Virus record (IMG/VR): IMGVR_UViG_2671180814_000016
Reading direction: 5' to 3' (one strand)
Source: a virus
Lineage: Duplodnaviria; Heunggongvirae; Uroviricota; Caudoviricetes
DNA length: 11,321 bases
Below the pieces are notes generated by a model, which saw only the letters and a program-made list of their open reading frames with translations, had not been told where the DNA came from and made no database searches. Below are positions 1 through 11,321 of this stretch, piece by piece. The position numbers and the translations under genes are program-made. The number at the start of each line of letters is the position of its first letter. Positions within the stretch are counted from its first letter, which is position 1.

Positions 1-1494
<1,494 letters not shown>

Positions 1495-1639: not shown

Positions 1640-1942
1640 TCAAAGCCGCTTACATTTAATATCATCGTACAAAGTTCCTTCTTTGTTTAGATATCTCGAA
1701 CCGTAATTATATCCATCATCAAATGCTTCATTGGTTATTACCAGTTCCCTGTAAAATTTCTCATCAGGTGCTGTTTCATAATGAAATGCACCATAAGGCG
1801 GCGGCATTTTACCGAGATATCTTGTAACGTAGAAACTCATGTCAGTACTAAATGAATCGTTATGAATATCCCAGCATTTAAAGTCTGGAATAGCTGCACT
1901 TGTTGTTAAAGGTAATAATAATAGCAATATCAATTTTTCCAT
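1640..1942 (-). CDS. Small secreted protein (signal peptide, two Cys), unknown function
   Basis: ORF-track ORF 1640..2002 begins at a TTG. The internal ATG at 1940..1942 gives MEKLILLLLLPLTTSA|AIPDF, a typical Sec signal peptide with an A-x-A-like cleavage site. Mature protein ~84 aa. No strong RBS. Confidence 0.5.
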   Translation of the reverse strand: MEKLILLLLLPLTTSAAIPDFKCWDIHNDSFSTDMSFYVTRYLGKMPPPYGAFHYETAPDEKFYRELVITNEAFDDGYNYGSRYLNKEGTLYDDIKCKRL

Positions 1943-2105
1943 AAGAGATACCAATGCAAATGATTTAATTGCATGATAACACCTACAAAGTCTCAATACC
2001 AATTAACAAGCGATATGGCTGATTTTGTTTCAATTACGTAAAATAATTTAAAATATCGTTAATTAAAACAATTGTGATGAAATGCTCACCTTGTAATTTG
2101 TTGCG

Positions 2106-2161: not shown

Positions 2162-2602
2162 TTACTTGATAAGCAAACTATAGAATTTTCTTGTCTGCTC
2201 AACTGCAACGACAAAACAGCCAATTGCAAAACATGCTCTCAACCCACCATCCCCGCCGTGTAATGACATTGCGGTAGTGAATATAAAATTAGTCACCAAG
2301 AAAGTAATAGCCATATACAAGATGAAATATAGAAATGAGAAAATGCGGCAAAGTATATTACTGCTTTTAATATCAAATATCTTTGCAAATACTTTCGTTA
2401 GTGGTGAAAAAAGCATAGCAATAAAACCAGGAACTACAGTTAGTAAGAATATCATTACTAACATTAAAGGTACTTTAACGTATTCATAACCACTAACACG
2501 AGTTAAAATAAGTACTCCGACGATACCTGTTATTAAGCCACCGATTAGTAGTTCTTTAGTTCCTGCAAACATTTCAGAGATATTATCGACTGTAATTTTC
2601 AT
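2162..2602 (-). CDS. Integral membrane protein, ~4 predicted TM helices, unknown function
   Basis: 146-aa ORF with ATG start. Hydrophobic stretches LLIGGLITGIVGVLILT, VPLMLVMIFLLTVVPGFIAMLF, FSFLYFILYMAITFLVTNFIF and LRACFAIGCFVVAV. No recognisable family motif. Confidence 0.6.
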   Translation of the reverse strand: MKITVDNISEMFAGTKELLIGGLITGIVGVLILTRVSGYEYVKVPLMLVMIFLLTVVPGFIAMLFSPLTKVFAKIFDIKSSNILCRIFSFLYFILYMAITFLVTNFIFTTAMSLHGGDGGLRACFAIGCFVVAVEQTRKFYSLLIK

Positions 2603-2707: not shown

Positions 2708-2977
2708 TTACTTCGATACTACCTGCCATTGTCCATCATGCCGGATGATCTCATACTGGTACTTACCATCACACCGTACATCAATACGTCCTGTACCATT
2801 CTCAGTACTATCCATAGTCACCATATCGCATGGGTACTTACCCTTGATTAGTGACTGTGCGAAATCCATAGCGTTCTGGTTCTCATTGTCCGTGTACTGT
2901 GGCTGGGGTGCATCCTCACCTGCAATGTTGAAGAGTACCCCAGCCAGTACTAACAAAATCACCATTACCTTTCCCAT
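2708..2977 (-). CDS. Small periplasmic/secreted protein (signal peptide, two Cys)
   Basis: 89-aa ORF with ATG start and SD-like AGGG 5 nt upstream. N-terminus MGKVMVILLVLAGVLFNIAG is a signal peptide. Starts 7 bp after the stop of the upstream lipoprotein gene, so likely co-transcribed. Confidence 0.6.
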   Translation of the reverse strand: MGKVMVILLVLAGVLFNIAGEDAPQPQYTDNENQNAMDFAQSLIKGKYPCDMVTMDSTENGTGRIDVRCDGKYQYEIIRHDGQWQVVSK

Positions 2978-2984
2978 ACGTACC

Positions 2985-3347
2985 CTATAGATTGTCGAGG
3001 ATATGGGATGGTGAATTGACCCCTTCTAACCAATCGTGAACACTATCGGTCTGATGTGGTACTACCTTACTTACATGCTCTCTATAGGGATGTAGTTCAG
3101 CAATGCGGGAATCTCGTATGAGGCATCCAGTACTTGTATTGTCATCATGATAGATCTTGTTATAGATGCGACCGCAATCACTCTGGAACTGAGGACGGTA
3201 GTACTTCACCCCATTACGTGTTCCTGCATCAAACAGTACTACGGCCTTGTCATCTACATAGCCAACGTAAGCTTTATCCATGAAGCTGTGCGTAGTAGTA
3301 CATCCAGTACTAAGGGCAATCAGTAACCCAATTAGTAATTTTTTCAT
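2985..3347 (-). CDS. Probable lipoprotein (signal peptide ending ...ALSTGC)
   Basis: 120-aa ORF with ATG start and RBS AGGA 8 nt upstream. N-terminus MKKLLIGLLIALSTGC has a hydrophobic core followed by Cys; the lipobox is slightly non-canonical at -3. Starts 5 bp after the stop of the EAL-like gene. Confidence 0.6.
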   Translation of the reverse strand: MKKLLIGLLIALSTGCTTTHSFMDKAYVGYVDDKAVVLFDAGTRNGVKYYRPQFQSDCGRIYNKIYHDDNTSTGCLIRDSRIAELHPYREHVSKVVPHQTDSVHDWLEGVNSPSHILDNL

Positions 3348-3352
3348 TATTG

Positions 3353-3904
3353 TTATCCTATTAATTTTTCACATTGCTCAAAACGCATTGGCCTGAACTC
3401 TCCCTGTACCGCCCATACACCGGCCTCTCTGAGAATTGGGTAATACGTTTTATCTCTGACGGGTACGATCACCTTCTCGCAGTACTGGCGAATGCTTTTT
3501 ATGAGTACTGGAAAGATCAGACGGTCAATGTTCTCTTCTGTGTACCTTCTATTTAATCGGGCAACCTCGAAATCACCTGTAACCAGAGGAATAGCAGAAC
3601 CACCATGTACACCGAGATCATCAAGCCACTGCTGGTTATGTACTTTCATATCCCTTGTCATCTGCCGAAGGAATGGTAAGTACTCGTATGGTTCACCACG
3701 GCCAGTAGTAATCACACAATACAAACCGTTATCCCTGAACCATGCCGCCTTGCTTTCAATAAGCATTAGTTGCCCATGAAGTACTTCTTCTTCCCATAGG
3801 CCGATCTGCCTGATTCCCTCGCGTTCTACATGGCTGACCAACTCAACCCCCAGCAACTGACCACCCAAACTTGTTATCGGTATTGCCCAATTATCAATGT
3901 TCAT
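3353..3904 (-). CDS. EAL-domain-like protein, probably catalytically degenerate (YdiV/PdeH-like motif order), 183 aa
   Basis: Motifs in EAL order and spacing: AIPITSLGGQLLGVELVSH (EAL box as ELV, Arg missing), QWLDDLGVHGG (DDFGTG-like), RQYCEKVIVPVRD (where EGVE is expected, substituted), AVQGEF (QG[YW]F-like). About 55 aa shorter than a canonical EAL domain. Assigned from recalled family motifs, not a search. Confidence 0.55.
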   Translation of the reverse strand: MNIDNWAIPITSLGGQLLGVELVSHVEREGIRQIGLWEEEVLHGQLMLIESKAAWFRDNGLYCVITTGRGEPYEYLPFLRQMTRDMKVHNQQWLDDLGVHGGSAIPLVTGDFEVARLNRRYTEENIDRLIFPVLIKSIRQYCEKVIVPVRDKTYYPILREAGVWAVQGEFRPMRFEQCEKLIG

Positions 3905-3936
3905 AACTTTGCTCGTTACGCTTTAAGTTATTGATA

Positions 3937-3989
3937 ATTGATCATTTTTAAAACATTGGCAATTAAATCGATCAATTTTATTGATCATT
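3937..3989. promoter_or_regulatory. Operator-like repeats containing three GATC sites: 10-mer ATTGATCATT twice (3937..3946, 3980..3989) and palindrome GATCAAT-TTT-ATTGATC (3970..3986)
   Basis: Read directly in the 192-bp divergent intergenic region between the EAL-like gene (minus) and the LexA-box gene (plus). Three GATC tetramers within 50 bp of AT-rich DNA. Confidence 0.45.
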
Positions 3990-4055: not shown

Positions 4056-4075
4056 TACTGTACATATATACAGTA
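4056..4075 (+). promoter_or_regulatory. LexA (SOS) box TACTGTACATATATACAGTA
   Basis: Exact CTGT-N8-ACAG with AT-rich spacer and palindromic TA flanks. Differs from the E. coli consensus TACTGTATATATATACAGTA at one spacer position. Lies 21 bp upstream of the ATG at 4097 and 7 bp upstream of a strong SD (GAGGAGGG), where it would overlap the promoter. Confidence 0.7.
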
Positions 4076-4096: not shown

Positions 4097-4408
4097 ATGA
4101 GCAAAGACGGCTATGATCCATCCATTACGCGAGGGGTTCAGAAGTTCTCACATAACGGTCGCTGGGCAACCGTGTGTTATTGGGGATCTGCACTAACAGA
4201 ATTTCATTATGGGGATAGGGTATTCTTCCAGAATCAGTACAGGGAATACTGGTTAGGTACTATAGAGAGAGATTGTTTTGTACTTACCTGTGAAACACCA
4301 CTAATAAGTGTTATTGATGGGTTAGCATATCTATCTGCTGAGTACCGGATGAATCAAAGCAGTGAAGAAGGTGATTGGTTCTGTGATCAGGGGGAACTAC
4401 CCTTCTGA
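4097..4408 (+). CDS. Hypothetical 103-aa protein, predicted SOS-regulated
   Basis: ATG start with strong SD GAGGAGGG 6 nt upstream; LexA box immediately upstream. No TM segment. C-terminal EEGDWFCDQGE faintly recalls the DinI C-terminus (DDWF), which is too weak to assign. Confidence 0.7.
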   Translation: MSKDGYDPSITRGVQKFSHNGRWATVCYWGSALTEFHYGDRVFFQNQYREYWLGTIERDCFVLTCETPLISVIDGLAYLSAEYRMNQSSEEGDWFCDQGELPF

Positions 4409-6021: not shown

Positions 6022-6765
6022 TCAAATTTTATTGCTGTCTTTAAACAACAGTGCTTTTAAACTTTCGACACTTAATACTTCGTTACCGCGATGTACCATT
6101 GCGTGACAGTTTGGACAAAGTGGAACCATATCAGTAATTGGATTTACCTCGTAATCCTCGCCTACTGTGTGTAGCGGTTTGATATGATGAACGTGTATAA
6201 AGCCCTTGGCGTGTTCACCATAGACTTTCTCAAAGTTAAACTCACAACACCCGCAGGAAGTACCATGATGGTCAATACAAGCCTGTCGTGCTTTTGGATC
6301 ACGCTCGTAGGAGTTTACTGTAACTTGCTTTTTTGCACCCTCAGCGTAGTTTTCAGGTGAGGTAATTTCATCTGGAAATGGATTAGGTAAAAAGTCTGCA
6401 TACCAAACTGTTCCTTCTTTCCGAAGGTAACGTTTTTCAAGTTTTGGAGTGAACCGTTTGATAACAGCTACATCTCTATTCTCATCGTTTCGTCCCTGCT
6501 CCATATCAAACGTGTAAAGCTCATAACCTTCAGCTATCAATTGAATGTGTTCAATAGCTTGAATATATCCAAGATTTTTTCTTTCCTTTCCCTCCACAAC
6601 TTTGGTTTTCCACCGCTCCCTCAGAATGACTGATCTTTCTTGCTCTTTTTGTACATCCCATGCACCAAAGATAACCATTTTCTTGTCGTGGTTCACAAAT
6701 GACCAACTCCAAGTCCAGTTACTACAAGTAGCACCATGCGACTGGATGAATTGTTTTCTGTTCAT
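6022..6765 (-). CDS. McrA-like zinc-finger HNH nuclease with an unassigned ~170-aa N-terminal domain
   Basis: 247-aa ORF with ATG start and strong RBS GAGAGGGA. C-terminus CGCCEFNFEKVYGEHAKGFIHVHHIKPLHTVGEDYEVNPITDMVPLCPNCHAMVH matches the CxxC...HH...N...CPNCH..H pattern of McrA-type HNH domains as recalled from E. coli McrA. The N-terminal region matches no domain I can name. Confidence 0.8.
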   Translation of the reverse strand: MNRKQFIQSHGATCSNWTWSWSFVNHDKKMVIFGAWDVQKEQERSVILRERWKTKVVEGKERKNLGYIQAIEHIQLIAEGYELYTFDMEQGRNDENRDVAVIKRFTPKLEKRYLRKEGTVWYADFLPNPFPDEITSPENYAEGAKKQVTVNSYERDPKARQACIDHHGTSCGCCEFNFEKVYGEHAKGFIHVHHIKPLHTVGEDYEVNPITDMVPLCPNCHAMVHRGNEVLSVESLKALLFKDSNKI

Positions 6766-7784: not shown

Positions 7785-7815
7785 ATGCCAGTACTGGAAT
7801 ACTGGCATTTTTTAT
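7785..7815. terminator. Hairpin ATGCCAGTA-ctggaa-TACTGGCAT followed by T-run ATTTTTTAT on the plus strand; possible bidirectional terminator at the 3' end of the HNH homing endonuclease gene
   Basis: Stem arms are exact reverse complements and contain the palindrome CCAGTACTGG. The U-run is strong in plus orientation and weak in minus orientation. The T-run overlaps the minus-strand stop codon of the 7812..8366 gene. Confidence 0.45.
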
Positions 7816-8366
7816 GGTTTACGTTGAATGGTTAGGCTTTGTATTCTTTGTCTTTGCTTATTCGTAAGATATGTTGTGTACCATTTTGAATAGGTAGTAC
7901 CTTTGAATAACTTACCTATATTCTGAGGGCAAATATTAATACCAGTTTGATTTAAAAACCATTTAGTGATTGCATATTGAGATAATTGTCCTTTAAGGTA
8001 CTCTCCAACAATCATTAACCATTGCTTTAGAGTAAGCTTTTGAGTACGAGTACCTTTATGCTTTCTATTGGAATTATTAACCTTCTGAGTTACCCAACGT
8101 AAATTTTTTGCTTTGTTATTCATTTTATCGCGGTCGATATGATCTACAGTGTATCTTCCTCCAATGGGTTTAGCACCATTGAATAAAGTACAAACCAAAA
8201 CATGTACATATAGTGATTTGCCATTAATAGAAACTTTTTTGTATCCATTAGATGGGTTTTTCGTAGCTATATACTGTTTTGTTTTATCATTGTAAACATC
8301 GCCATTTTCAGATACGTAGTAATGTTTTGAATTTGGAATTAATCTCCAAGTGATTTTAGGGTTCAT
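7812..8366 (-). CDS. HNH homing endonuclease (HNH_3 / NUMOD4-type) with probable C-terminal DNA-binding region
   Basis: 184-aa ORF with ATG start and RBS AAGGA 8 nt upstream. N-terminal W.LIP....YYVSENGDVY (NUMOD4-like), then YVHVLVCTLFNG...VDHIDRDKMNNKAKNLRWVTQKVN, typical of free-standing phage HNH homing endonucleases. Confidence 0.8.
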   Translation of the reverse strand: MNPKITWRLIPNSKHYYVSENGDVYNDKTKQYIATKNPSNGYKKVSINGKSLYVHVLVCTLFNGAKPIGGRYTVDHIDRDKMNNKAKNLRWVTQKVNNSNRKHKGTRTQKLTLKQWLMIVGEYLKGQLSQYAITKWFLNQTGINICPQNIGKLFKGTTYSKWYTTYLTNKQRQRIQSLTIQRKP

Positions 8367-10033: not shown

Positions 10034-11321
10034 TTAATCCATCCAATCAATCATATCTTCATTAACAATGATCTCAAATTTTTCACGCTTGAGAAGATTA
10101 AGATACAATCCAACATCATCAAGTATTTTGGTACGGCTAATGGCAAGCGACCACATATCAGTACCAGATGTAACGGAGGCAATGAAAACGGTTTTGCCCT
10201 CTTCATTGACAGTGTAGACACGCTCGCCGCTTGTTTCAGAGATTACGATCTCATGTAGTACTTCACCCCCGCCCCGCTTGTTATCAATCACAAGCGTATG
10301 GGATAGGACATCATTGAAGTATTCCAACTGTACAAATATACGCTTTTCAAAAACCCAGTACTTAACAGATTTCAGTACTAATCTTACTTCTTTCCGTAAC
10401 TTTGCACGTAACTCGACATTCAATGGATCAAGTACTTTATTAATATCGAAATCAAATACAGGGATTTCTTTGATGTTCTTTGAATTTAATATCTCAGATT
10501 CTATTTCTTCAATTCTATCCTGTACCTCAGTTAAACCCGTCATTAATGGTAACGAGGCTTTCTTACCTGCTGCCTTACGTTCATTAATTTTAACCTGATA
10601 GGTTTCTGCCTCTTTCTGTAAAGTACTTAACTCTTCTCGCAATGATGCAAGCAATGAATCTGAATCCGACTTACCTTCCATCATCAATTTATTGAAGTCT
10701 ACATTTTTGACAAGCTGTAGAATGTTCTTTTCAATTCTCATGTACTGGATAGATTTAGCATCGCAGATCTTCTTTTCTTCCCTGTTACGACAAATAACAT
10801 ACTTAGTTCGTACATGATTATAGTGAATTGCAATATTGCCCCCACAGTGACCGCATTTCAGCATCTTCGGGAAGAGGTTAGTAATGTAATCATCCTGAGC
10901 AATGGTAATGTCCTTACGGATACGATTAGCTATACCATTCCGCGATAACTTCTCATTAGCCCGTTCAAAGGTGAGGTTATCGATAATCTTCATGGTAACT
11001 ACTTTCTTATCACGTAGTACCCTCAGTACATTGACGGTACTCCACCCTTTCGGCAAGCGTTTTACAATCGCCCCTGAACCAAGGCCTGTCTCATAAAGTT
11101 TAAAAATCTCTCGGACAACTTCTGGTTCAAGTAATAGATCCTCTGCTGGCTTCTTCTTCTCCAACATAACGCGATCCATCATTCTATTCGCTGTCAGGAA
11201 CAACTCTTCGTCGATGATTTTCGGGTAAACGTTTGGTACTACCTCACCGTTGTAACGTTCATGCTCGCCCAACAAACGGCGATCACGTATCTGAGGTGTA
11301 CTGGCAATAGCGGACACTACC
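10034..11321 (-). CDS. Large serine recombinase/integrase, C-terminal ~428 residues; 5' end (catalytic resolvase domain) beyond the right edge
   Basis: Frame is open to the window edge; the ORF-track start at 11317 is a GTG and probably not the true start. Contains recombinase-domain-like segments (YPKIIDEELF, EPEVVREIFKLYETGLGSGAIVKRL), a zinc-ribbon motif (CGHCGG...C..C) and a coiled-coil-like stretch (LREELSTLQKEAETYQVKINERK), the architecture of large serine recombinases. Confidence 0.65.
   Translation of the reverse strand, partial: VVSAIASTPQIRDRRLLGEHERYNGEVVPNVYPKIIDEELFLTANRMMDRVMLEKKKPAEDLLLEPEVVREIFKLYETGLGSGAIVKRLPKGWSTVNVLRVLRDKKVVTMKIIDNLTFERANEKLSRNGIANRIRKDITIAQDDYITNLFPKMLKCGHCGGNIAIHYNHVRTKYVICRNREEKKICDAKSIQYMRIEKNILQLVKNVDFNKLMMEGKSDSDSLLASLREELSTLQKEAETYQVKINERKAAGKKASLPLMTGLTEVQDRIEEIESEILNSKNIKEIPVFDFDINKVLDPLNVELRAKLRKEVRLVLKSVKYWVFEKRIFVQLEYFNDVLSHTLVIDNKRGGGEVLHEIVISETSGERVYTVNEEGKTVFIASVTSGTDMWSLAISRTKILDDVGLYLNLLKREKFEIIVNEDMIDWMD

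What the first reader, a model, noticed from the sequence alone, without database searches (positions are those of the whole stretch)
2708..3904. Three-gene operon: degenerate EAL-like protein, lipoprotein, small periplasmic protein
The 183-aa protein keeps EAL motif order and spacing but has substitutions at positions expected to be catalytic (ELV for EAL, PVRD where EGVE is expected). That suggests a c-di-GMP-binding or protein-binding role rather than phosphodiesterase activity, as known for YdiV-type degenerate EAL proteins. It is tightly coupled (5- and 7-bp gaps) to a lipoprotein and a secreted protein. A mobile-element module joining a second-messenger-like domain to envelope proteins could change host motility, biofilm formation or receptor exposure.
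Basis: partly seen in the sequence, partly recalled or inferred. Interest (0 to 1): 0.55.

Follow-up and report, generated by a model that had tools for sequence, protein, structure and literature searches.

The report
Prophage-borne miniature dead EAL-like protein
A decayed prophage carries a shrunken, catalytically dead relative of the Salmonella flagella-silencing protein STM1697, always paired with an outer-membrane lipoprotein, so this family of temperate phages may switch off host flagella and remodel the cell surface, although no function has been tested.

Summary
The three minus-strand ORFs, the 5- and 7-bp gaps and the ELV and PVRD substitutions are all present. The 183-aa protein is a real but extreme EAL-like protein. 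Pfam misses it. Its only solved sequence relative is STM1697, a Salmonella anti-FlhD4C2 factor (E 4.6e-25). The predicted fold matches STM1697, then YdiV, then true EAL domains. It keeps 4 of 12 canonical EAL active-site residues and lacks about 44 residues (two helices), so motif spacing is not conserved.

Short forms of 169-193 aa form their own clade. They occur only in one lineage of serine-integrase prophages of Enterobacterales. There the module is conserved: a LexA-box-controlled 103-aa gene, transcribed divergently from the EAL-like gene, then the lipoprotein gene. All three genes are under purifying selection (dN/dS 0.14-0.26). The third gene (89 aa) is a rare add-on.

Best reading: a non-catalytic protein binder that probably targets FlhD, made together with an envelope lipoprotein of unknown role. 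FlhD binding is inferred, not shown. The retained contact residues are conserved across the whole stand-alone EAL family, and a Klebsiella homologue sits in a genus I take to lack flagella. I rate it a new variant of a known kind, of moderate interest.

The parts
3353..3904 (-). 183-aa truncated, catalytically dead stand-alone EAL-like protein (STM1697/YdiV kind)
   Evidence: ORF. PDB phmmer gives STM1697 5hxg_A, E 4.6e-25. BLASTP gives 31% identity, E 2e-31, with a gap of about 44 aa. Foldseek top hits are 5hxg_A, then 3tlq (YdiV), then EAL domains. 4 of 12 EAL catalytic positions are kept. dN/dS is 0.14-0.20.
2985..3347 (-). 120-aa predicted outer-membrane lipoprotein, the conserved partner of the EAL-like gene
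2708..2977 (-). 89-aa predicted exported protein, a lineage-specific add-on
   Evidence: N-terminal hydrophobic segment and two Cys. Only 3 clusters in 5.8 billion proteins. Present after the lipoprotein gene only in L003 (68% identity) and displaced in L019.
3934..3962 (-). Predicted sigma-70 promoter of the EAL-like operon (TTGCCA, 17 bp spacer, AATTAT)
   Evidence: Consensus scan. The TTG of the -35 element and the ATTAT of the -10 region are invariant columns in the seven-prophage alignment A4. Prediction only.
3937..3989 (.). Three GATC-containing copies of the near-palindrome ATTGATCAAT, overlapping the predicted promoter; candidate operator sites
   Evidence: 4 matches in the window against 1.1 expected, three of them here. 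The stretch 'AAAAATGATCAATTATCAAT' is conserved in 7 loci. The binding factor is unknown.
4056..4075 (.). Canonical LexA (SOS) box TACTGTACATATATACAGTA in front of the divergent 103-aa gene
   Evidence: It is the only CTGT-N8-ACAG in the window. CTG and CAG are invariant in all seven aligned prophages.
4097..4408 (+). Divergent 103-aa gene (phrog_2100, function unknown), the conserved third member of the module
   Evidence: PHROG hit at 4.8e-9. Present divergently upstream of the EAL-like gene in all related loci with upstream sequence except IS-interrupted L013.

Best explanation
The 183-aa protein is a miniaturised stand-alone EAL-like domain. It has lost phosphodiesterase chemistry and almost certainly canonical c-di-GMP binding, so it acts as a protein-binding regulator. 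It belongs to a prophage-restricted clade whose nearest characterised relatives are the enterobacterial anti-FlhD4C2 factors STM1697 and YdiV.

The most likely mechanism is as follows. The protein is expressed from its own promoter on the prophage. It docks through its conserved helix (residues 128-141) and Y121 onto FlhD in the FlhD4C2 master activator. This blocks class II flagellar transcription and switches off flagella in the lysogen or infected cell.

It is translated from the same message as a disulfide-containing outer-membrane lipoprotein. That lipoprotein's role is unknown but is presumably at the envelope, for example receptor masking or superinfection exclusion. In this lineage a small exported protein has been appended.

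Shown here: homology, fold, loss of catalytic residues, prophage context, conserved gene pairing and purifying selection. Inferred: the FlhD target, the motility phenotype, and any functional link to the lipoprotein.
For: Homology and fold:
- STM1697 is the only PDB sequence hit. BLASTP gives 31% identity, E 2e-31.
- The AF2 model (pLDDT 69.6) matches the STM1697-FlhD complex first (E 2.6e-10), YdiV next, and EAL domains after.
- 20 of 25 relatives hit PF00563. There is a weak NCBIfam PdeH hit.

Loss of chemistry:
- 4 of 12 catalytic or ligand positions are kept, against 8 in STM1697 and 11-12 in many relatives.

FlhD contact residues:
- Of the 11 STM1697 residues that contact FlhD (PMC5622320), nine are alignable.
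- Five are identical (L97, V108, L134, K136, Y141). Three are conservative (F160 to Y121, K167 to R128, L172 to V133). One differs (H176 to S137). This includes both 'centre' residues, F160 and L173.
- Residues 128-141 are among the most conserved stretches of the short-form family.

Gene and context:
- dN/dS of 0.14-0.20 shows a working gene.
- The module 103-aa gene, EAL-like gene, lipoprotein gene is conserved in prophages of E. coli, Shigella, Klebsiella, Lelliottia, Enterobacter, Scandinavium and Pantoea and in 6 IMG/VR contigs.
Against: - The STM1697 contact residues are conserved across the whole stand-alone EAL family, including members with 11-12 of 12 catalytic residues. Their retention therefore does not discriminate FlhD binders.
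- Within the short forms these positions are not significantly more conserved than the rest (Mann-Whitney p=0.12).
- Two STM1697 contact residues (positions 115/116) fall in the deleted segment.
- The protein is not the sister of STM1697 (NJ bootstrap 2%).
- A 176-aa homologue sits in Klebsiella pneumoniae prophages. To my knowledge that genus lacks flagella. Shigella sonnei, the probable source of this window, is non-motile. In the Klebsiella copy three otherwise invariant contact positions differ (R128S, K136Q, Y141C), which can be read either way.
- The AF2 model is poor over residues 69-112.
- No binding, motility or expression data exist.
Confidence: 0.5

Rival explanations
1. It is a degenerate EAL-like adaptor that binds a different partner. 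That partner could be another host regulator, as YdiV does with Fur/SlyD or BluF with BluR, or a phage protein. The effect on the cell would then not be through flagella.
For: The short forms are a separate clade from STM1697. They occur in Klebsiella prophages, a genus I believe lacks flagella. Part of the STM1697 interface is deleted. The 'interface' residues are family-wide and so uninformative. YdiV is documented to have a second target (PMC7515728, listed).
Against: Both characterised degenerate stand-alone EAL-like proteins of enterobacteria bind FlhD on the same face (PMC5622320). The corresponding helix is the best-conserved part of this protein. No alternative partner is suggested by the neighbouring genes.
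Confidence: 0.25
2. It is a cyclic-dinucleotide receptor or sponge. It would either sense c-di-GMP, like LapD or FimX, or soak up defence signalling nucleotides as a phage counter-defence.
For: It has an EAL fold. It retains E21, D95, D96 and Q167. It sits in a prophage region whose neighbouring slots carry defence-like cargo in relatives: DUF3800, mSLOG/DUF4326-DUF488-DuOB, and GTPase with 8xMP.
Against: It lacks the EALxR arginine, the Asn, the Lys and both Glu motifs, and it has lost two helices of the barrel. STM1697 and YdiV neither bind nor cleave c-di-GMP (PMC5622320). There are no PADLOC hits. It is a conserved core-like gene of the lineage rather than variable cargo.
Confidence: 0.1
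3. It is part of the prophage's own induction or regulatory circuit. It would work with the divergent LexA-controlled 103-aa gene and the palindromic operators between them, rather than being a host-directed conversion gene.
For: The invariant divergent arrangement includes a conserved LexA box and conserved GATC-containing palindromes over the predicted promoter. The module is conserved across the whole phage lineage while the flanks vary. Its GC content (42-43%) differs from the AT-rich variable flanks.
Against: Neither the EAL-like protein nor the 103-aa protein shows a DNA-binding domain. Co-translation with an exported lipoprotein is atypical for a switch component. Nothing links EAL-like folds to phage repressor control.
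Confidence: 0.1
4. It is a decaying gene fragment with no function.
For: It sits in an IS-bounded prophage remnant. The domain is truncated. One IMG/VR copy (L025) appears interrupted.
Against: dN/dS is 0.14-0.20 over pairs 13-55% divergent in protein. Start, length and C-terminus are conserved in more than 20 distinct sequences. The same truncation is shared by the whole clade.
Confidence: 0.03

Closest known systems
STM1697 (Salmonella enterica; PDB 5HXG), an EAL-like anti-FlhD4C2 factor
   Same: Both are stand-alone degenerate EAL-like domains. STM1697 is the best and only PDB sequence hit and the best fold hit. They share the FlhD-contacting helix motif, FPxL(I/V)K.IR.YC, and an aromatic residue at position F160/Y121.
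   Different: Identity is 31%. The window protein is about 44 residues (two helices) shorter. It keeps 4 rather than 8 of 12 catalytic positions. Contact residues 115/116 are missing and H176 is replaced by Ser. It is not the sister clade. STM1697 lies next to a non-phage gene in the one STM1697-bearing fragment examined (L002), whereas this gene is in a prophage.
YdiV / RflP / STM1344 (PDB 3TLQ, 4ES4)
   Same: Both are degenerate EAL-like FlhD binders. YdiV is the second-best fold match (E 2.5e-6).
   Different: No sequence-level hit to YdiV appears even at E<=10. The YdiV-specific interface residues F155, F168, F181 and A184 are already absent from STM1697 according to PMC5622320 and were not examined here.
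PdeH (YhjH) and other active stand-alone EAL phosphodiesterases
   Same: Same domain family. There is a weak NCBIfam PRK11596 hit over residues 83-181 (E 2.7e-5). Many phmmer relatives keep 11-12 of 12 catalytic residues.
   Different: The window protein lacks the Asn, both Glu motifs, the Lys and the general-base Glu, and is truncated. It scores far below the family cut-off (23.6 against 190 bits).
Phage superinfection-exclusion lipoproteins (T5 Llp, phi80/N15 Cor), for the 120-aa partner
   Same: Both are small phage-encoded outer-membrane lipoproteins with a disulfide and a beta-rich core.

Membership tests
EAL domain (Pfam PF00563) | Direct match to the family profile | tested here: not met
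   No Pfam hit at E<=1. The precomputed Pfam field is empty for all 15 close homologues.
EAL domain (Pfam PF00563) | Homology or fold shared with bona fide EAL domains | tested here: met
   20 of 25 phmmer relatives hit PF00563, best E 1.6e-23. Foldseek hits with E<=1e-3 include RocR, MorA, LapD, FimX, DosP and others.
Active EAL c-di-GMP phosphodiesterases | Canonical residues: E(EAL), R, N, ExxE, DD, KxD, E(GV)E, Q | tested here: not met
   4 of 12 are present (E21, D95, D96, Q167). The others read H25, T, M/D, R116, N118, P148 and R150.
Degenerate stand-alone EAL-like anti-FlhD4C2 factors (STM1697, YdiV/STM1344) | Single EAL-like domain with no sensor or GGDEF domain, and significant similarity to a characterised member | tested here: met
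   The protein is 183 aa with one domain. STM1697 scores E 4.6e-25 and BLASTP E 2e-31. The fold ranking is STM1697, then YdiV.
Degenerate stand-alone EAL-like anti-FlhD4C2 factors (STM1697, YdiV/STM1344) | Orthology with STM1697 (same clade, same length and architecture) | tested here: not met
   Short forms are a separate clade (NJ bootstrap 88%). Grouping them with STM1697 has 2% support. There is a deletion of about 44 aa.
Degenerate stand-alone EAL-like anti-FlhD4C2 factors (STM1697, YdiV/STM1344) | Retention of the FlhD-contacting residues defined in 5HXG | tested here: inconclusive
   8 of 9 alignable residues are identical or conservative and 2 are deleted. The same residues are conserved in presumably active relatives, and they are not significantly more conserved than background (p=0.12).
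Degenerate stand-alone EAL-like anti-FlhD4C2 factors (STM1697, YdiV/STM1344) | Binds FlhD and lowers class II flagellar transcription and motility; no c-di-GMP binding or hydrolysis | not testable with these tools
   This needs pull-down, EMSA, motility and DRaCALA assays.
Bacterial lipoproteins (PROSITE PS51257), for the 120-aa protein | Signal peptide ending in a lipobox with an invariant Cys | tested here: met
   MKKLLIGLLIALSTG|C16 fits PS51257. 32 of 39 homologues also fit it and Cys16 is present in at least 90%. Lipidation itself is not testable here.
Phage superinfection-exclusion lipoproteins (Llp/Cor), for the 120-aa protein | Sequence or fold homology to Llp or Cor | tested here: not met
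Conserved operon | Same strand, short gaps, and adjacency conserved in diverged relatives | tested here: met
   This holds for the EAL-like and lipoprotein pair. Gaps are 2-17 bp in L001, L003-6, L009-18 and L020-26. It does not hold for the 89-aa gene, which is adjacent only in L003.

The most novel reading that the evidence does not exclude
A whole lineage of temperate enterobacterial phages carries, as a conserved core module, a miniaturised anti-FlhD4C2 factor translationally coupled to an outer-membrane lipoprotein. Together they would strip flagella and mask the envelope of the lysogen. The payoff would be exclusion of flagellotropic or other phages, or immune stealth. This would be the first phage-encoded protein inhibitor of the flagellar master regulator, and a minimal scaffold showing which part of the EAL fold suffices for FlhD capture.
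Probability: 0.3. Interest if true: 0.7.

Novelty: new variant of a known kind. Interest (0 to 1): 0.5.

Why it matters
Degenerate EAL-like proteins such as YdiV and STM1697 are key switches that turn off flagella in Salmonella and E. coli during infection. So far they are known only as chromosomal host genes.

A phage-borne, drastically reduced version would have three consequences if it really targets FlhD:
- It would show that temperate phages can hijack the flagellar master regulator by lysogenic conversion.
- It would define a minimal FlhD-binding EAL scaffold.
- It would offer a simple testable link between prophage carriage, motility, phage receptor availability and flagellin-driven immunity.

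I found no paper describing such a phage gene. No EAL-like fold appeared in the BFVD viral structure library. None appeared in 50,697 GenBank phage records except one unverified 2.2-kb record carrying STM1697 itself.

If the target is something else, this is still an uncharacterised, strongly conserved prophage module.

Tried and rejected
- Direct Pfam, PHROG and PADLOC assignment of the 183-aa protein gave nothing useful. The results were none, phrog_32988 of unknown function at E 4e-4, and none.
- Megablast of the whole window found no phage record. In plasmids it matched only the 41-42 bases at the IS2 end. In E. coli it found only two weakly related loci.
- I tested whether FlhD-contact positions are more conserved than the rest in the short forms. 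They are not significantly so (p=0.12), so I do not use this as support.
- I tested whether STM1697 is the sister of the prophage clade, which would suggest domestication. This is rejected (2% bootstrap).
- I looked for an intrinsic terminator after the 89-aa gene. The scan found none and the fold z-score was -0.08.
- The 89-aa and 103-aa proteins gave only noise against PDB.
- The afdb50 fold library was unavailable.
- A complex prediction with FlhD could not be submitted under the tool's sequence restrictions.

Full report
OBSERVATION

The three ORFs exist as described, all on the minus strand: 3353..3904 (183 aa), 2985..3347 (120 aa) and 2708..2977 (89 aa). The intergenic gaps are 5 bp and 7 bp. 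Shine-Dalgarno-like AGGA and AGGG motifs lie inside the 3' ends of the upstream genes. In the 183-aa protein, E21-L22-V23 occupies the EAL position and P148-V149-R150-D151 occupies the EGVE position. The 120-aa protein begins MKKLLIGLLIALSTG|C, which fits the PROSITE lipoprotein pattern. 32 of 39 homologues fit it too. The 89-aa protein has a strongly hydrophobic N-terminus followed by NIAG|ED, and two cysteines.

EAL motif spacing is not kept, because about 44 residues between the 'N' motif and the 'DDxG' motif are missing relative to STM1697 and other relatives. Pfam's EAL model does not see the protein even at E<=1.

WHAT THE 183-aa PROTEIN IS

- Against all PDB sequences, the single hit is Salmonella STM1697 (5hxg_A). 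It scores E 4.6e-25 with the sequence and 1.4e-28 with a profile of the 14 close homologues.
- I recovered an STM1697 orthologue from an unverified 2.2-kb record labelled 'Salmonella phage'. BLASTP against it gives 31% identity, E 2e-31, with one long gap.
- An AlphaFold2 model has pLDDT 69.6 and is poor over residues 69-112. By Foldseek it matches the STM1697-FlhD complex best (E 2.6e-10), then YdiV (3tlq), then many genuine EAL domains such as RocR, MorA, LapD, FimX and DosP.
- An exhaustive phmmer search of 1.84 billion representatives finds only 37 related clusters. 20 of the 25 I aligned hit Pfam EAL. NCBIfam gives a weak PdeH hit.

The protein is therefore a true member of the stand-alone EAL lineage, but an extreme one. 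Of 12 canonical catalytic or ligand positions it keeps four (E21, D95, D96, Q167). STM1697 keeps eight, and many longer relatives keep 11-12. Phosphodiesterase activity can be excluded with high confidence. Canonical c-di-GMP binding is unlikely, because the EALxR arginine, the Asn, the Lys and the Glu motifs are absent. STM1697 and YdiV themselves neither bind nor cleave c-di-GMP (PMC5622320).

A DISTINCT, PROPHAGE-RESTRICTED CLADE

The short forms (169-193 aa) group together with 88% NJ bootstrap support. A 224-aa protein is their sister (85%). STM1697 is not their sister (2%).

Every genomic context recovered is the same kind of prophage. It has a large serine integrase at one end, then a few kilobases of variable genes, then a Nu1-like small terminase, GpA-type large terminase, Portal_2 and a protease-capsid fusion. 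In E. coli it is inserted next to yeaG(prkA)/mipA. Hosts named by the records include Shigella sonnei, which carries a 100% identical protein. They also include E. coli, Lelliottia, Enterobacter, Scandinavium, Klebsiella pneumoniae and Pantoea agglomerans. Six IMG/VR viral contigs carry it.

Only 2 of 5,426 complete E. coli genomes have similar DNA. The BFVD viral structure library contains nothing with this fold at E<=1e-3. GenBank phage records contain nothing beyond the STM1697 fragment.

The window itself is a prophage remnant. terL is cut after codon 88 by an IS2 end at bases 1-42, and the integrase lacks its first 226 or so residues.

THE MODULE

Across these prophages the conserved unit has three parts:
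- a 103-aa gene (phrog_2100, unknown function) transcribed divergently;
- the EAL-like gene;
- 2-17 bp downstream, the lipoprotein gene.

Loci found through the EAL-like protein have the lipoprotein in all cases but one pair. In L007/L008 an unrelated signal-peptide protein occupies the slot. Loci found through the lipoprotein always have an EAL-like gene upstream. This holds even in Pantoea, where the EAL-like gene is only about 29% identical while the lipoprotein is 60% identical.

All three genes are under purifying selection, with dN/dS 0.14-0.26. The block has 42-43% GC against 32-37% for the variable flanks.

The 89-aa gene is nearly an orphan, with 3 clusters. It follows the lipoprotein only in the closest relative, L003. 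No terminator is evident after it. The transcript may therefore run on into a 4-TM protein (2162..2602) and a further secreted protein (1640..2002).

REGULATORY REGION

Aligning the intergenic region of seven prophages shows an invariant, canonical LexA box, TACTGTACATATATACAGTA, at 4056-4075. It is the only CTGT-N8-ACAG in the window. It lies just upstream of the 103-aa gene, so that gene is probably SOS-induced.

The predicted promoter of the EAL-like operon is TTGCCA, 17 bp spacer, AATTAT, at 3962-3934. Its -35 TTG and -10 core are invariant. It is overlapped by three GATC-containing copies of the near-palindrome ATTGATCAAT, which are candidate operators for an unknown factor.

MECHANISM

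The best-supported reading is a non-catalytic protein binder. The target I consider most likely is FlhD.
- Both characterised degenerate stand-alone EAL-like proteins of enterobacteria bind the same face of FlhD (PMC5622320).
- Of the 11 STM1697 contact residues, nine align. Five are identical, three are conservative and one differs. Both central residues are retained (F160 to Y121, and L173 to L134).
- The corresponding helix, residues 128-141, is among the most conserved stretches of the family.

I hold this at only about 45-50%, for these reasons:
- The same residues are conserved in relatives that look catalytically competent, so they may be structural.
- They are not significantly more conserved than background (p=0.12).
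- Two contacts lie in the deleted segment.
- Homologues occur in prophages of Klebsiella, a genus that to my knowledge lacks flagella. There, three otherwise invariant contact positions are changed.

The lipoprotein has no detectable relative of known function. An envelope or exclusion role is a guess based on precedent (Llp, Cor), not on homology.

RIVAL EXPLANATIONS

- A different protein partner (0.25).
- A cyclic-nucleotide receptor or sponge (0.1).
- A component of the prophage's own SOS-linked switch (0.1).
- A dead remnant (0.03, largely excluded).

NOVELTY AND VERDICT

I found no paper describing a phage- or prophage-encoded YdiV/STM1697-like protein. The one 'phage-encoded' motility factor that came up, EC958_1546, is an unrelated NanS-like esterase. 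Public annotation calls these proteins 'hypothetical', or in one fragment 'EAL domain-containing'.

I classify it as a new variant of a known kind: a truncated, prophage-restricted clade of the degenerate stand-alone EAL-like family, in a conserved module with a lipoprotein and an SOS-controlled gene. Interest is moderate (0.5). It would rise if FlhD binding and a motility or phage-exclusion phenotype were shown.

Noticed in passing
window 4056-4075: A canonical LexA/SOS box, TACTGTACATATATACAGTA, lies just upstream of the 103-aa gene (4097..4408, phrog_2100). CTG and CAG are invariant in seven related prophages. This suggests an SOS-induced gene, possibly a Tum-like antirepressor. That resemblance is from memory and was not tested.
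   Followed up: partly
window 3937-3989: Three GATC-containing copies of the near-palindrome ATTGATCAAT overlap the predicted promoter of the EAL-like operon. The stretch is conserved in relatives. They are candidate operator or Dam/SeqA-sensitive sites. The binding factor is unknown.
   Followed up: partly
window 1-306 and 10037-11321: The window is an IS-bounded prophage remnant. An IS2 end at bases 1-42 cuts terL after codon 88; that stretch is 100% identical to the terL of L003. The large serine integrase lacks its first 226 or so residues. The last ~49 bases match an unannotated stretch of an E. coli chromosome.
   Followed up: partly
window 2162-2602 and 1640-2002 (minus strand): Two further envelope-directed genes lie downstream on the same strand with no terminator between. 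One is a roughly 4-TM 146-aa protein, with homologues in the same slot in L007 (63% identity) and L011 (27%). The other is a probable secreted protein if translation starts at M21. They may belong to the same transcript.
   Followed up: partly
L009/L017 (DUF3800), L014 6373-8080 (mSLOG/DUF4326, DUF488, DuOB), L017 2851-4159 (DUF8209, DUF1493, Hcp), L007 5452-7363 (GTPase with 8xMP): The slots flanking the conserved module carry different defence-like or conflict-system cargo in different prophages. The region between the integrase and terS therefore behaves as a cargo hotspot.
   Followed up: no
Escherichia phage EJP2 (OQ411014.1) 308035-308259: A jumbo phage encodes a distant homologue of the 120-aa lipoprotein (37% identity over residues 6-89, E 9e-10). 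It is the only hit among GenBank phage records.
   Followed up: no
window 6022-6765 and 7812-8366 (minus strand): Two separate HNH endonuclease genes are present. One is of the HNH type. The other is HNH_3 with NUMOD4, like a homing endonuclease.
   Followed up: no
L025 6001-6507: In one IMG/VR contig the EAL-like reading frame opens for only 22 codons from the conserved start, although tblastn aligns it over its full length. This may be an interrupted copy or a sequencing error.
   Followed up: no
L014 5435-5989 (Pantoea agglomerans prophage): The gene upstream of the lipoprotein is a very divergent 184-aa EAL-like protein, about 29% identical over the C-terminal half. It retains an ISEDF and LWLGNLG motif region. 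The gene pairing has therefore survived far more divergence in the EAL-like partner than in the lipoprotein.
   Followed up: partly
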